DNA of 64,000 bases from an uncultured Bacilli bacterium. GTDB taxonomy: Bacteria; Bacillota_I; Bacilli_A; RF39; UBA660. Every line of letters starts with the position of its first letter. The stretch's first letter is position 1. Of this stretch, positions 57,415 to 60,318 are shown piece after piece. The notes under the pieces are model-generated. The model saw only the letters and a program-made list of their open reading frames with translations, did not search any database and had not been told where the DNA came from. Made by a program: the position numbers and the translations under genes. Location: the NCBI GenBank assembly GCA_910577075.1, contig CAJTKV010000005.1:680-64679 (forward strand). Direction: 5' to 3'.

Positions 57415-59586
57415 TTATTTAATGTCTTCAAATTCTTTTCTTTCACTTATTATATCTATATCTTTAATGTCTACTTCTTTATTTTCATATTTTTCTCGTA
57501 TAAACTCTAAAAATTTTTGTTCTAAATCGCCGGTGTTTTTTACTTTATAATCATTATTTTTTATGGATTTTTCCATCATTCCCCTTAGGCGCTTCCACTT
57601 ATCATAATATGCAGTTTTGGTTTTTACCATAAATGATTTATTATCCTCTAAAACAAATCCTTCGATGAAGTGGCCATTTAATTGATAGTCATCTCCCGTT
57701 ATTTGATTGTAAATATCTTTAAATTCTTCTGGGTTGTTTGCCGTATAGATTAGTTCTTTTACTTCAATGGCGTTATTATTACTAAAATATTTTAATTCAT
57801 CATAACTTACTTTGTCGTATTCATGCGTATTATAAATCATATCTAAAAGAATGAGATTTTGTTCTCTATATTCAATGATGTGTGGGTCATTTATTGGATC
57901 AATCACTTCAAAAACAAAGGATAAATTATCGGCAAGCATTTTATTCTTAATTGCAGATATTTGATCTTCACTGAAGATATTATAAAATATATCTGTAAAA
58001 TATGTAACAAATGGTCCTTCATTTGTCGATTTGGAAGCGAAGAAGAGTTCGCCATCTTTTGTAGATAAGATTCCCAAAAAGCCATTATATTTTAAATAAA
58101 AGTTAACAGGAAAATTTAAGGTATTAATTAAATCTTCTATTTGTGTTTCTCTACGTTCATTTATTTTAAAGAACTTATTATAACTTCTAGCAATTATTTT
58201 ATTGTTCAATGTATCAATAAATAATCCTCGAGCTTTAGTAGTCATATTATCCCATATGTGATTAGCAAATGCTTCTTTAGAAAAATTAAATGATGAGATA
58301 TTGTTTCCTAAATCCTTTTCAATAATATATTTATTATTTTTAAAATCATTTATCAAATTATAAATAGTTGTTTCCTCTATTAAGTTAGGATTGTATATGT
58401 CATTTTTTATTTCTGTACAAGAAATTCCAGTTGGTGAGATATTTAAAACACGAAGATGTCCTCCATGTTCAATATCACCTTCAAGATTTAAAGAAAGAGG
58501 ATATTCATCATACTTAATTTTATAGTAATTGCGATGAGCATGGATTTGAATTACTTTATTTTCTTGGTTTTCCATATACTCGTTATATATAGAATCTATA
58601 TTAACATCATATTTATCGATACCATAGATAAAGGAATTGGTGCTGTATAGATCTAGCGACTTTGATGGAAAATATGGTATTCCTCCATGAGATATTAAAT
58701 ATTTTTGGTCGTTAAATTCGATAAAAGATATCTGAGCTAATTTTTTAACAAAGCCACGAAGAAGACTTTTTTCGAGTTTATTATCTTCAAACTCTTCAAT
58801 AGTGTTTTTAATATCATAATCCATTTTAAATTCATCACCGCAGGCATATTTATATAATTTATCTTCATGATTGCCAACTAAGAATATCATATTATCGTTT
58901 TTCATTAATTCTAATAGATAATTAAATGTTTCATAATTTTCTATGCCACGATCAAAGTAATCACCAGTAAAGATATATGCATCTTTGTCTTTTATTGGAT
59001 TATCAGTAAAATATTTTTTTAAAGCGCTTAGGCAACCATGAATATCACCAATCACATGAATATTTTCATATTTATTAAAATCTCTTGGTATAGTCTTTAT
59101 TATATCTTGAAAGTTTTCTGGTTTGATAACTTGAAAAGATGATGGTACGGATTCTTTGGCAAATAGACGATAAGATTTGTCAATAGAACTTTCAGGAACT
59201 TGTTTATAGCTTTCACGAGCATTATTTCGCTCATAAACTATTTCTTTAGGAATATCAGTGAAATCTAAGAGATAGAGACGATAGCGATATTTTTCTGCTA
59301 ATTTTTTATAGTTTGATAACGATTCTTTAACGTTTGCATGAACGGCATCAATTATAGTGAATTCTCCTCTTCGCATTCTATCTTCTAATATCTCATATAA
59401 AAGATTCCAGATTTTTTTATTATTGAATTGAGGTATTGTTTCATTATAGTTTACAGTCATTTCAGGCGAAGAATACATAAGTCTTATTTTATCAGCGCAT
59501 AATGTATAGGCTTCTAAATTATTTTCTTGAATAAATGTGCTCTTTCCACAGCCCTGGGCTCCTCTTAGAATTACTAATTTTCGCAT
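57415..59586 (-). CDS. pnkp: Bacterial polynucleotide kinase-phosphatase-ligase (Pnkp-like, three domains)
   Basis: The N-terminal P-loop kinase (GAQGCGKST) is followed by a calcineurin-like phosphoesterase (GDIHGC, GDYFDRG, GNHE). The C-terminal nucleotidyltransferase has ligase motif I KYNGF, motif IV EGFVL and motif V FMVKTK. The start is at MRKLVILRG, which has an AAGGAGG RBS. Confidence 0.7.
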   Translation of the reverse strand: MRKLVILRGAQGCGKSTFIQENNLEAYTLCADKIRLMYSSPEMTVNYNETIPQFNNKKIWNLLYEILEDRMRRGEFTIIDAVHANVKESLSNYKKLAEKYRYRLYLLDFTDIPKEIVYERNNARESYKQVPESSIDKSYRLFAKESVPSSFQVIKPENFQDIIKTIPRDFNKYENIHVIGDIHGCLSALKKYFTDNPIKDKDAYIFTGDYFDRGIENYETFNYLLELMKNDNMIFLVGNHEDKLYKYACGDEFKMDYDIKNTIEEFEDNKLEKSLLRGFVKKLAQISFIEFNDQKYLISHGGIPYFPSKSLDLYSTNSFIYGIDKYDVNIDSIYNEYMENQENKVIQIHAHRNYYKIKYDEYPLSLNLEGDIEHGGHLRVLNISPTGISCTEIKNDIYNPNLIEETTIYNLINDFKNNKYIIEKDLGNNISSFNFSKEAFANHIWDNMTTKARGLFIDTLNNKIIARSYNKFFKINERRETQIEDLINTLNFPVNFYLKYNGFLGILSTKDGELFFASKSTNEGPFVTYFTDIFYNIFSEDQISAIKNKMLADNLSFVFEVIDPINDPHIIEYREQNLILLDMIYNTHEYDKVSYDELKYFSNNNAIEVKELIYTANNPEEFKDIYNQITGDDYQLNGHFIEGFVLEDNKSFMVKTKTAYYDKWKRLRGMMEKSIKNNDYKVKNTGDLEQKFLEFIREKYENKEVDIKDIDIISERKEFEDIK

Positions 59587-59702
59587 ATTTTTTCCTCCTT
59601 GATGCTTTATATTATACCATTTTTTTACCAACTATGATATTAGATGACAAGATTATTTTTAAATAATAAAAAGAGTCTATATAGACTCTTCCTGTTTTGT
59701 TA

Positions 59703-60318
59703 TTATAATAATGAACTTAGACCTTGATTTTTTAGGGGTTTACTTATTTCTAAAAATGCCTCTTTGTCTAATTCGTGAACGACATTTTCTTCTTCCCTTG
59801 AATAATCATAAATCGGAAGTTCGCATTTCAATTGTTGCATTATTTCAAGCATCGTACGAAATCTTTTTAATAAAAATAAATTACCACTTTTAGCCCAGTC
59901 ATAGACCATGCATTCAAAGCCAATAATCTTGTCTGGCGATATTTTGTCATATACCTGATACTCATCGGACCAAGCGGTATAACGCAATGGCAAAGGAGTA
60001 CGATTAAATAGACGATAGAAGTTGGATTTTTTGCATTTTATGACCTTTAGATTATCTAAAATTACAAGTGGCCCTGAATTTTTATATCTTGTTAGTGCAC
60101 GATCTTCTCCATCAATATCTTTGGCAATGCTAACGTAATATTTGCCATTTAAACCAAAATTGGGACACGGAAAACTCAAATGGCGCTTTGATAAAATTCC
60201 TTTTTCTAAGATATCAGAGACAAGAGCAAAGTCAAAGCCGTGATAAAACCAATCCGGGTTTTTTTATAATGATATCTTTTTCAATTTTATCTAATTCGCC
60301 TAAATCAATACTATCCAT
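59703..60318 (-). pseudogene. PARP-like (H-Y-E class) mono-ADP-ribosyltransferase, about 204 aa, split by a frameshift at an A7 tract (possibly phase-variable or a sequencing error)
   Basis: GAGGGA RBS before MDSIDLGELDKIEKDIIIKK. After the A7 tract the frame shifts into ..[23 protein letters not shown] (compare PARP1 [22 protein letters not shown]). Further motifs are [11 protein letters not shown] (compare FGKGIYFA) and WSDEYQVYD (compare LYNEYIVYD, the catalytic Glu). Confidence 0.55.

What the first reader, a model, noticed from the sequence alone, without database searches (positions are those of the whole stretch)
57415..60318. Pnkp kinase-phosphatase-ligase paired with a minimal PARP-like ADP-ribosyltransferase instead of Hen1
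Two adjacent minus-strand genes lie 116 bp apart. Upstream is a roughly 204-aa protein whose three diagnostic segments align to the PARP catalytic core: FYHGF..[8 protein letters not shown] with WHGS..[19 protein letters not shown] with FGKGIYFA, and DEYQVYD with NEYIVYD (the catalytic Glu). This places it in the H-Y-E ART class that includes PARPs and DarT. Downstream is a three-domain bacterial Pnkp with a P-loop kinase, a GDxHG/GDxxDRG/GNHE phosphoesterase and a KxNG/EGxVL/VKxK ligase-adenylyltransferase. Bacterial Pnkp is normally encoded with the Hen1 methyltransferase as an RNA-repair pair, and no Hen1 is present here. PARP-family and Tpt1-family ARTs are known to ADP-ribosylate 5'-phosphorylated nucleic-acid ends, and a polynucleotide kinase generates exactly that end. 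The pair therefore looks like a coupled end-healing plus end-capping (ADP-ribosylation) module for RNA or DNA. It could be a repair, anti-ribotoxin or toxin-like system. I did not find this pairing described.
Basis: partly seen in the sequence, partly recalled or inferred. Interest (0 to 1): 0.85.

Follow-up and report, generated by a model that had tools for sequence, protein, structure and literature searches.

The report
Unclassified ART gene beside RNA-repair enzyme
A small gene for a previously unclassified ADP-ribosyltransferase-fold protein happens to sit next to a self-sufficient three-in-one RNA repair enzyme, but the two are separate transcription units, and related genomes suggest they are neighbours by accident of gene order, not a working pair.

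Summary
A frameshifted gene (60318→59703, minus strand) encodes a 204-aa protein once an A7 run is read as A6. It lies 116 bp upstream of a 723-aa kinase–metallophosphatase–ligase gene (59586→57415).

- **Large protein.** It is not the Hen1-dependent Pnkp. TIGR04075 scores 94 bits against a 750 cutoff. Its ligase domain is Rnl1/Trl1-type, and full-length relatives occur in 112 Firmicutes phage records. None of the 50,697 phage records searched encodes this ART.
- **Coupling.** The proposed coupling is not supported. A conserved terminator and an extended −10 promoter lie between the genes. Direct adjacency exists only in this species. Sister lineages have a convergent gene in between, and more distant ART homologues have no such enzyme within the 6–7 kb of flank available.

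Verdict: two independent genes, one of them a new family within a known superfamily.

The parts
59703..60318 (-). Gene for a 204-aa single-domain ADP-ribosyltransferase-fold protein of an unclassified H-Y-E-type family; frameshifted in this assembly
60259..60265 (-). A7 homopolymer carrying a +1 frameshift (relatives and other assemblies have A6)
   Evidence: alignment with L002/L003; the intact identical protein is on 20 contigs; the truncated form is on 1 contig.
60338..60366 (-). Promoter-like site (TTGTTA-17-TAAAAT with TG) upstream of the ART gene
   Evidence: This is a consensus match only. The region as a whole has no more promoter-like matches than shuffled sequence.
59668..59693 (-). 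Intrinsic-terminator-like hairpin plus T-run immediately after the ART stop codon
   Evidence: 11-pair stem, and 5 terminator-like sites found against 1.1 expected in shuffles; the core stem AAGAGTCT/AGACTCTT is conserved in L002/L003 while the loop differs (ATAT vs GACT).
59594..59619 (-). Extended -10 element TGGTATAAT (59619-59611) and RBS AAGGAGG (59600-59594) of the ligase-enzyme gene
   Evidence: Read directly from the sequence. Conserved as TGATATAAT in L002/L003. The promoter scan did not list it because there is no good -35 hexamer.
57415..59586 (-). 723-aa trifunctional RNA repair enzyme ('KPL'): P-loop 5'-kinase, binuclear metallophosphoesterase and Rnl1/Trl1-type ATP-dependent RNA ligase
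   Evidence: Pfam domains; phrog_8238 matched full length, E 1.2e-204; 112 phage records cover at least 80% of it at 37-40% identity. (PDB matches); catalytic motifs invariant.
59170..59577 (-). Kinase module of KPL (aa 4-139)
   Evidence: AAA_33, E 4.4e-14. CthPnk 4gp7/4jst, E about 6e-5.
58519..59061 (-). Metallophosphoesterase module of KPL (aa 176-356) with GDIHG, GDYFDRG and GNHE
   Evidence: Metallophos, E 2.4e-18; lambda phosphatase 1g5b E 2e-7; CthPnkp phosphatase 4j6o E 5e-5.
57604..58236 (-). Ligase/adenylyltransferase module of KPL (aa 451-661) with KYNG, FEVID, EGFV and VKTK
   Evidence: PF09511 covers model positions 1-227 of 227, E 6.5e-37; the only PDB matches are fungal Trl1-LIG (9qw7, E 2.7e-7).
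60473..61030 (+). Orphan 185-aa gene transcribed divergently from the ART. It is the ART's most persistent neighbour in genus-level relatives; its role is unknown, and it is listed as context rather than as a proven partner.
   Evidence: present next to or near the ART in L001-4, L009-11, L016, L025/26 and L028/29; only 16 clusters; no Pfam or PDB match.

Best explanation
These are two functionally independent, separately transcribed genes that became direct neighbours in one species through local gene loss or rearrangement.

**Gene 1.** It encodes a small cytoplasmic single-domain enzyme of the ADP-ribosyltransferase fold. His26 (strand 1), Tyr61/Ser63 (strand 2) and Glu119/Gln121 (strand 5) are conserved, together with Arg112 and Asp171. 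It belongs to an unannotated family of about 170 sequence clusters, nearly all solitary proteins of about 200 aa in low-GC uncultured Bacilli. I infer that it binds NAD+ through the His/Tyr motifs and uses Glu119 to transfer ADP-ribose. Because its closest structural relatives are Tpt1/KptA and DarT, a nucleic-acid or phosphate acceptor is the most likely target. The target itself is unknown. The gene is frameshifted in this assembly, by a homopolymer error or a recent mutation, but it is intact and under purifying selection in the population.

**Gene 2.** It encodes a self-sufficient heal-and-seal RNA repair enzyme. The kinase phosphorylates 5'-OH ends, the lambda-phosphatase-like domain removes the 2',3'-cyclic or 3' phosphate, and the Rnl1/Trl1-type ligase seals the break. 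This is the same logic as T4 Pnkp plus Rnl1 fused into one chain. The same architecture is found in SPbeta-like and Twort-like phages.

**Shown:** the fold, residue conservation, domain content, transcription signals and comparative gene order. **Inferred:** the catalytic activities, the ART's acceptor, and the absence of functional coupling.
For: **ART fold and family**
- AF2 model: mean pLDDT 86.9.
- Conservation across 106 relatives.
- No curated family model covers it.
- Profile search of 1.84 billion representatives: 170 clusters, mostly 180-230 aa.
- dN/dS 0.08-0.22. The intact identical protein is present on 20 contigs.

**Independence of the two genes**
- A terminator with a conserved stem, then an extended -10 promoter, lie between the genes.
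- Direct adjacency is seen only in L001-4, which belong to the same species (RecG 99-100% identical).
- In L009-11, L016, L025/26 and L028/29 (RecG 88-92%) a convergent HExxH gene follows the ART. In L009-11 KPL lies 3.2 kb downstream.
- KPL is absent from the sequenced flanks in L005, L006-8, L012-15, L017, L019-24 and L027.
- KPL occurs at full length in 112 phage records, while the ART has no hit in 50,697 phage records or in IMG/VR. The ART profile finds nothing near KPL in SPbetaL8 or Twort.

**KPL identity**
-.
- The GDxHG histidine is intact. Its H189D replacement in CthPnkp is what leaves a 2'-PO4 end (PMC1920235). That His189 is the His of the GDxHG motif is from my own knowledge, consistent with the Asp187/His189 metal ligands described in PMC3675462.
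Against: - Adjacency, or near-adjacency, of ART and KPL persists across at least two species-level lineages (ART 63% identical, KPL 77%). Inherited synteny explains this, but it does not exclude some functional relation.
- Many contigs are short, so 'no KPL nearby' covers only about 6-7 kb of flank.
- Genes do not have to be co-transcribed to work in the same pathway.
- The ART's nearest structural relatives are precisely the enzymes that act on phosphorylated nucleic-acid ends.
- The KPL ligase domain resembles the 2'-PO4-requiring Trl1 ligase more than any other solved ligase.
- No biochemical data exist for either protein.
Confidence: 0.7

Rival explanations
1. First reader's model. The kinase of the three-domain enzyme makes 5'-phosphate ends and the adjacent ART caps them with ADP-ribose, forming a coupled end-healing plus end-capping module for RNA or DNA.
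For: The ART fold and the H-Y-E residues are real. Some Tpt1 enzymes ADP-ribosylate 5'-PO4 ends of RNA and DNA (PMC6182162). The genes are 116 bp apart on the same strand. Linkage, with intervening genes, is also seen in L009-11.
Against: - A terminator and a separate promoter lie between the genes.
- The linkage is not conserved beyond close relatives.
- 112 phage records carry the enzyme, and no phage record has this ART.
- Capping a 5'-PO4 would block the enzyme's own ligase step, so the two activities would compete rather than cooperate (inference).
- The premise that Hen1 has been 'replaced' is wrong, because this enzyme is not of the Hen1-dependent type (PMC3675462).
Confidence: 0.06
2. 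Yeast-type repair pathway in a bacterium. The Trl1-like ligase domain seals 3'-OH/2'-PO4 ends, and the ART acts as a minimal analogue of Tpt1 that removes the junction 2'-phosphate using NAD+.
For: - In the PDB, the ligase domain matches only fungal Trl1-LIG.
- The equivalent of Trl1 His227, part of the proposed 2'-PO4 site, is invariant in the KPL family (DPHIIEY). A basic pair, K665/R668, lies where Trl1 has R334xxR337 (PMC6379707).
- A 2'-phosphomonoester is the intermediate of CthPnkp-type healing (PMC1920235).
Against: - The ART lacks the N-terminal RNA-binding lobe of Tpt1 and its Arg-His-Arg-Arg tetrad (the tetrad is from my own knowledge). Only KptA residues 98-135 align, and there is no PF01885 hit.
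- It keeps an invariant catalytic-type Glu that Tpt1 does not use (my own knowledge).
- The phosphatase retains the GDxHG histidine, whose loss is what yields 2'-PO4 ends (PMC1920235).
- The strict RxxR motif is not conserved (D-K-W-K at the aligned positions).
- Staphylococcus and SPbeta-like phages that carry KPL have neither this ART nor a detectable KptA.
- The linkage is not conserved.
Confidence: 0.06
3. The ART is a conflict (toxin or effector-type) enzyme, unrelated to the repair enzyme. The divergent orphan gene at 60473-61030 or the downstream HExxH gene may act as its neutraliser or regulator.
For: - The domain occurs at the C-terminus of two proteins of about 1,050-1,080 aa (P0161, P0167) and as a tandem pair (P0128).
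- Structural hits include the Rhs toxin TreX, Scabin and pierisin.
- There are faint single-member hits to Tox-ART-HYD1 and Tox-ART-HYE1.
- The ART and the orphan gene are only 58-65% identical where RecG is 88-92% identical.
- The ART locus is a local divergence and recombination hot spot.
- Independent disruptions of the gene exist in other assemblies.
Against: - There is no signal peptide or secretion-associated domain (read from the sequence).
- The gene is solitary in housekeeping chromosomal contexts (UvrA, AddAB, RecG).
- No neighbour is conserved across the wider family.
- The orphan gene is divergently transcribed and confined to 16 clusters.
- There are no PADLOC hits, and dN/dS is low.
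Confidence: 0.13

Closest known systems
Tpt1/KptA RNA 2'-phosphotransferase (ART superfamily), including its recognised association with RNA ligases in RNA repair
   Different: There is no N-terminal RNA-binding lobe and no PF01885 match. A conserved Glu119/Gln121 is present. Linkage to the ligase gene is not conserved.
DarT (ssDNA thymidine ADP-ribosyltransferase of DarTG)
   Different: There is no match to any Pfam model, which covers the DarT model as well. No macrodomain (DarG) antitoxin is nearby. The gene is monocistronic in a housekeeping context.
PARP catalytic domain (H-Y-E ARTs)
   Same: Same fold and the same H / Y / E motif order.
Clostridium thermocellum Pnkp-Hen1 RNA repair system
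   Same: Same order of kinase, binuclear metallophosphoesterase and ligase modules. The kinase and phosphatase modules are homologous to CthPnkp (4gp7, 4j6o).
   Different: The ligase module is of a different clade: PF09511, matching Trl1-LIG and not the Hen1-activated Rnl4-type ligase (PMC3675462, PMC6379707). TIGR04075 fails. There is no Hen1.
Phage T4 Pnkp + Rnl1 tRNA repair, and the fused kinase-phosphatase-ligase proteins of SPbeta-like and Twort-like phages (phrog_8238)
   Same: Full-length homology to the phage proteins (E 1.2e-204 to the PHROG; 37-40% identity over 100% of the length). The heal-and-seal logic is the same.
   Different: Here the gene is chromosomal in an uncultured Bacilli bacterium, not in a phage. 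As far as my searches show, the family has not been characterised biochemically.

Membership tests
ADP-ribosyltransferase superfamily (H-Y-E clade) | ART fold (split beta-sheet NAD+-binding core) | tested here: met
ADP-ribosyltransferase superfamily (H-Y-E clade) | Conserved His (strand 1), aromatic Tyr (strand 2) and Glu (strand 5) | tested here: met
   H26 94/106, Y61 94/106 (+10 F), E119 105/106. These residues lie on predicted strands 24-27, 61-66 and 119-123. No residue-by-residue superposition was possible because no coordinates were available.
ADP-ribosyltransferase superfamily (H-Y-E clade) | NAD+-dependent ADP-ribosyl transfer activity | not testable with these tools
   Requires biochemistry.
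PARP catalytic domain | Match to the PARP family model (PF00644), with closest structural neighbours being PARPs | tested here: not met
Tpt1/KptA | Two-lobe architecture with an N-terminal RNA-binding lobe carrying the Arg-His-Arg-Arg catalytic tetrad (from my own knowledge of the family); match to PF01885 | tested here: not met
   The ART domain starts at about residue 20. hhalign aligns only KptA residues 98-135. No PF01885 hit.
DarT/DarTG | DarT family model match and an adjacent macrodomain antitoxin | tested here: not met
   No Pfam hit for the protein or for 106 relatives. No macrodomain among the neighbours in any locus.
Bacterial Pnkp (Hen1-associated, TIGR04075) | Full-length match above the curated cutoff | tested here: not met
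   94.3 bits against a cutoff of 750. Only residues 4-303 match model positions 10-323 of 851.
Bacterial Pnkp (Hen1-associated, TIGR04075) | Rnl4-type ligase domain activated by Hen1, with an adjacent Hen1 gene (PMC3675462) | tested here: not met
   The ligase domain is PF09511. Its PDB matches are Trl1-LIG only; the CthPnkp ligase is not found even at E<=10. No Hen1 was found among the ORFs scanned.
Bacterial Pnkp (Hen1-associated, TIGR04075) | Kinase and binuclear metallophosphoesterase modules homologous to CthPnkp | tested here: met
   4gp7/4jst (kinase) and 4j6o (phosphatase), E about 5e-5. The motifs are intact.
Phage-type fused kinase-phosphatase-Rnl1-like ligase (phrog_8238) | Full-length profile match with all three sets of catalytic motifs | tested here: met
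   E 1.2e-204 over residues 1-711. 112 phage records cover at least 80% of the protein. Invariant motifs.
Trl1-type (Rnl6) 2'-PO4-dependent ligase | His227 / Arg334 / Arg337 phosphate site and the Trl1-specific C-domain (PMC6379707) | tested here: inconclusive
   The His equivalent is invariant. The positions aligned to RxxR read D-K-W-K, with R668 nearby. The C-domain fold was not examined.
Operon / conserved two-gene module (ART + repair enzyme) | Co-transcription and linkage conserved across divergent genomes | tested here: not met
   Terminator and promoter lie between the genes. Direct adjacency is found in one species only. The repair enzyme is absent from the flanks of nine more distant ART lineages and of the phage loci.

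The most novel reading that the evidence does not exclude
The small protein is a stripped-down, Tpt1-like NAD+-dependent enzyme that acts on phosphorylated RNA ends or junctions produced by the neighbouring Trl1-like kinase-phosphatase-ligase. It would either remove a junction 2'-phosphate or cap 5'-phosphates with ADP-ribose. This would be the first bacterial counterpart of the fungal Trl1/Tpt1 pathway, built from non-orthologous parts, and would give a natural substrate source for bacterial phosphotransferase-type ARTs.
Probability: 0.08. Interest if true: 0.8.

Novelty: new member of a known kind. Interest (0 to 1): 0.25.

Why it matters
As proposed, the finding would have defined a new RNA end-healing plus ADP-ribose-capping system. 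The evidence does not support that.

What remains is more modest:
- **A compact ART family.** It has a well-conserved H-Y-E triad and about 170 clusters, mostly in uncultured low-GC Bacilli. No Pfam, NCBIfam or PADLOC model covers it, and its closest structural relatives modify nucleic acids. It is a reasonable candidate for a new nucleic-acid ADP-ribosylating or phosphotransferase activity.
- **A chromosomal copy of a widespread fused RNA repair enzyme.** The enzyme is common in phages, and my searches turned up no biochemical characterisation. Its ligase domain resembles fungal Trl1. Whether that ligase needs a 2'-phosphate is an open and testable question.

Tried and rejected
- **Sequence-family searches on the ART.** Pfam, NCBIfam, PADLOC and PHROGs gave nothing. 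Profile-versus-PDB searches gave nothing with A1 and only DarT1 at E 0.075 with A2.
- **Broader context survey.** Genome contigs gave only 3 loci. The A2 alignment was too diverse for the pattern search. The survey therefore rests on 12 exact-protein look-ups plus those 3 loci.
- **Fold search.** The afdb50 library was unavailable.
- **Fusion link to the 894-aa orphan.** I tested whether the N-terminal regions of the ~1,050-aa ART-bearing proteins are related to the 894-aa orphan (51323-54007), which is syntenic with the ART. No similarity was found, so the idea was rejected.
- **The divergent 185-aa orphan gene.** No Pfam or PDB match, and only 16 clusters. It could not be classified.
- **Isoelectric point.** As a hint of nucleic-acid binding it was uninformative: 5.98 here, family median 7.7.
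- **Pseudogene decay.** I considered it as the explanation for the frameshift. It was rejected in favour of an assembly-specific homopolymer error or a recent mutation, because the identical intact allele is common and dN/dS is low.
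Full report

On the minus strand an ATG at 60318 opens a reading frame that breaks inside a run of seven A (60259-60265). It continues in another frame as the ORF 59703..60179. Deleting one A gives a 204-aa protein with the reported segments WFYHGF…[18 protein letters not shown] and DEYQVYD.

Close relatives have six A at this site. The restored protein is identical to P0249 (MCX4365165.1, a 'Bacilli bacterium' MAG), recorded on 20 contigs. The truncated 158-aa product is recorded on one contig. The frameshift is therefore peculiar to this assembly: a homopolymer error or a very recent mutation. The gene is under purifying selection, with dN/dS 0.08-0.22 against seven relatives.

Exactly 116 bp downstream, behind AAGGAGG, an ATG at 59586 starts a 723-aa protein (to 57415). 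It has a P-loop, GDIHG / GDYFDRG / GNHE, and KYNG / EGFVL / VKTK motifs.

**The small protein.** No Pfam, NCBIfam, PADLOC or PHROG model matches it.
- A word-indexed search found 26 close relatives of 195-230 aa.
- A profile search of 1.84 billion representative proteins found 170 clusters at E<=1e-3. Nearly all are stand-alone proteins of 180-230 aa. The exceptions are two proteins of about 1,050-1,080 aa that carry the domain at the C-terminus, and one tandem duplicate.
- An AlphaFold2 model built on the alignment is confident (mean pLDDT 86.9, pTM 0.85).
- Across 106 diverse relatives, His26 is kept in 89%, Tyr61 in 89% (98% aromatic) and Glu119 in 99%. Also conserved are Asn57/Gly58, Ser63, Lys66, Arg112 (94%), Gln121 (91%) and Asp171 (97%). 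These residues lie on the predicted strands 24-27, 61-66 and 119-123.
- Profile comparisons are individually weak but point the same way. DarT1 is the best PDB sequence match (E 0.075), aligned at the His motif. hhalign against E. coli KptA aligns WFYHG…GI…YYVS with LYHGT…GL…YVHLS (E 0.039). Single family members give faint hits to Tox-ART-HYD1 and HYE1.

'PARP-like' is less accurate than 'Tpt1/DarT-like'. The protein fails the membership tests for all three named families: no family-model hit, no Tpt1 N-lobe, and no DarG partner.

**The large protein.** It has the module order of bacterial Pnkp, but it is a different enzyme.
- The Hen1-associated Pnkp model TIGR04075 matches only residues 4-303, at 94 bits against a cutoff of 750.
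- The C-terminal domain is a complete PF09511 (T4 Rnl1/Trl1-type) ligase domain.
- Against all PDB sequences the ligase domain matches only fungal Trl1-LIG structures (9qw7 E 2.7e-7, 6n0v, 6n67, 9r3w, 6n0t). It does not match the CthPnkp ligase, even at E<=10.
- In the Pnkp-Hen1 system the ligase domain is a distinct clade that cannot seal without Hen1 (PMC3675462, PMC6379707). That dependence is not expected here, so the absence of Hen1 is unremarkable.
- The whole protein matches phrog_8238 from end to end (E 1.2e-204). 112 phage records (SPbeta-like Bacillus phages, Twort-like and S. epidermidis myoviruses, an Alicyclobacillus phage) encode full-length homologues at 37-40% identity, annotated 'RNA ligase', 'polynucleotide kinase' or hypothetical.
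- All catalytic motifs are invariant between the window protein and the phage proteins.

The most economical reading is a self-sufficient heal-and-seal RNA repair enzyme, equivalent to T4 Pnkp plus Rnl1 in one chain.

**Are the two genes a module?** Three lines of evidence say no.

1. *Transcription signals.* A hairpin plus T-run (59693-59668) follows the ART stop codon. Terminator-like sites are enriched in the region (5 found, 1.1 expected). The core of the stem is conserved in relatives while the loop differs. After it comes a conserved extended -10 element (TGGTATAAT, 59619-59611) and a strong RBS. The ART has its own promoter-like site (60366-60338).

2. *Comparative gene order*.
   - Direct adjacency occurs only in contigs of the same species (RecG 99-100% identical).
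   - In the nearest other lineages (RecG 88-92%, ART 58-65%) the gene immediately downstream of the ART is a convergent ~308-aa HExxH protein that the window lacks.
   - In L009-11 two paralogues of that gene flank an Erm-like methyltransferase gene, and the repair enzyme follows 3.2 kb away.
   - Direct adjacency in the window is therefore secondary.
   - In nine further lineages (ART 54-63% identical, and three distant ones at about 25-27%) no homologue of the repair enzyme lies within the available flanks. In several of these the ART keeps its position relative to RecG or to the 894-aa orphan.
   - No gene is a constant neighbour across the wider family.

3. *Reverse check.* The ART has no match in 50,697 phage records or in IMG/VR, and the ART profile finds nothing around the phage enzymes. 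KptA homologues occur in 98 phage records, but not in the Staphylococcus or SPbeta-like phages that carry the enzyme.

**What stays open.** The ART's nearest structural relatives act on nucleic-acid phosphates or bases. The ligase domain resembles the 2'-PO4-dependent Trl1 ligase. It keeps the equivalent of Trl1 His227 (DPHIIEY, invariant). It has K665 and R668 near the positions of the Trl1 RxxR motif, although the aligned positions read D-K-W-K (PMC6379707).

A yeast-type pathway with the ART as a Tpt1 analogue cannot be excluded, but several points count against it:
- the intact GDxHG histidine, since H189D in CthPnkp is what yields 2'-PO4 ends (PMC1920235);
- the ART's lack of a Tpt1 N-lobe;
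- the phage distribution of the enzyme without this ART or a detectable KptA;
- the lack of conserved linkage.

A conflict-related role for the ART is the strongest alternative for its own function. Supporting observations are the C-terminal occurrence in large proteins, the toxin-like structural hits, faster divergence than neighbouring genes (58-65% against 88-92% for RecG), and a local recombination hot spot. This alternative, too, is independent of the repair enzyme.

**Context.** The window is ordinary chromosome from a low-GC (about 29%) uncultured Bacilli bacterium. It encodes UvrA, AddA/AddB, RecG, ABC transporters, PnuC, a GNAT, LemA and a TPM-domain protein. It is neither a prophage nor a defence island.

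**Comparison with known systems, and novelty.** ARTs working with RNA ligases, kinases and phosphoesterases in RNA repair are established through KptA/Tpt1 (PMC9503650, PMC7824862). Tpt1 capping of 5'-phosphates is also known (PMC6182162). Even the concept is therefore not new, and the specific pairing proposed here is not supported. The ART family is a new, unannotated member family of a well-known superfamily. The repair enzyme belongs to a family that is catalogued but for which I found no biochemical characterisation.

**Scores.** Interest 0.25. Novelty: new member of a known kind.

Noticed in passing
L009:6651-9695; also L016:2740-3666, L025:3618-4391, L028:5673-6056 (absent from the window): A ~308-aa protein with a YFHELGHAL (HExxH) motif and no Pfam hit lies convergently just downstream of the ART in the sister lineages. 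In L009-11 two 45%-identical paralogues flank an Erm-like rRNA adenine methyltransferase gene, between the ART and the repair enzyme.
   Followed up: partly
window 60473-61030 (+): An acidic (pI 4.8) orphan 185-aa gene is transcribed divergently from the ART. It is found in only 16 clusters, always next to or near the ART in genus-level relatives, and it evolves as fast as the ART (65% identical where RecG is 88-92%). It has no Pfam or PDB match.
   Followed up: partly
window 57604-58236 (-), ligase domain of the repair enzyme: Among solved structures the ligase domain matches only fungal Trl1-LIG. It keeps the equivalent of the Trl1-specific His227 (DPHIIEY) in bacterial and phage homologues alike. 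Whether this family needs a 2'-phosphate end is an open question.
   Followed up: partly
window 32813-34165 (-): A 450-aa protein scores best against the NCBIfam PurZ model (succino-amino-deoxyadenylate synthase; 181.6 bits, cutoff 300) and against archaeal-type PurA. Both are below cutoff, and only the N-terminal ~260 residues match.
   Followed up: no
window 59600-60400 compared with L002 and L003: The ART gene is a local divergence hot spot. It shows about 14% nucleotide differences from two conspecific contigs whose flanks differ by 0-3%, and the changes are mostly synonymous (dS 0.43). This indicates import of a divergent allele by recombination. The whole 12-kb region is a mosaic among strains.
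   Followed up: partly
P0250/P0251 (other assemblies of the same species): A second, independent disruption of the ART gene exists in other assemblies: the P0001 allele is split into 74-aa and 91-aa products on 3 contigs.
   Followed up: no
window 51323-54007 (-) and 54070-54870 (-); L005:3139-5883, L012:9853-11088, L027:4519-7026: An 894-aa orphan protein with no Pfam hit stays syntenic with the ART across divergent genomes. In L005 it is directly adjacent and divergent. It is not related to the N-terminal regions of the large ART-bearing proteins.
   Followed up: partly
L009:5272-5937 and L016:1358-2014; window 61709-62371 (-): A PnuC-type nicotinamide riboside/NMN transporter gene lies immediately upstream of the NAD+-using ART, on the same strand, in two sister lineages. 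In the window it is two genes away. This could be coincidental synteny.
   Followed up: no
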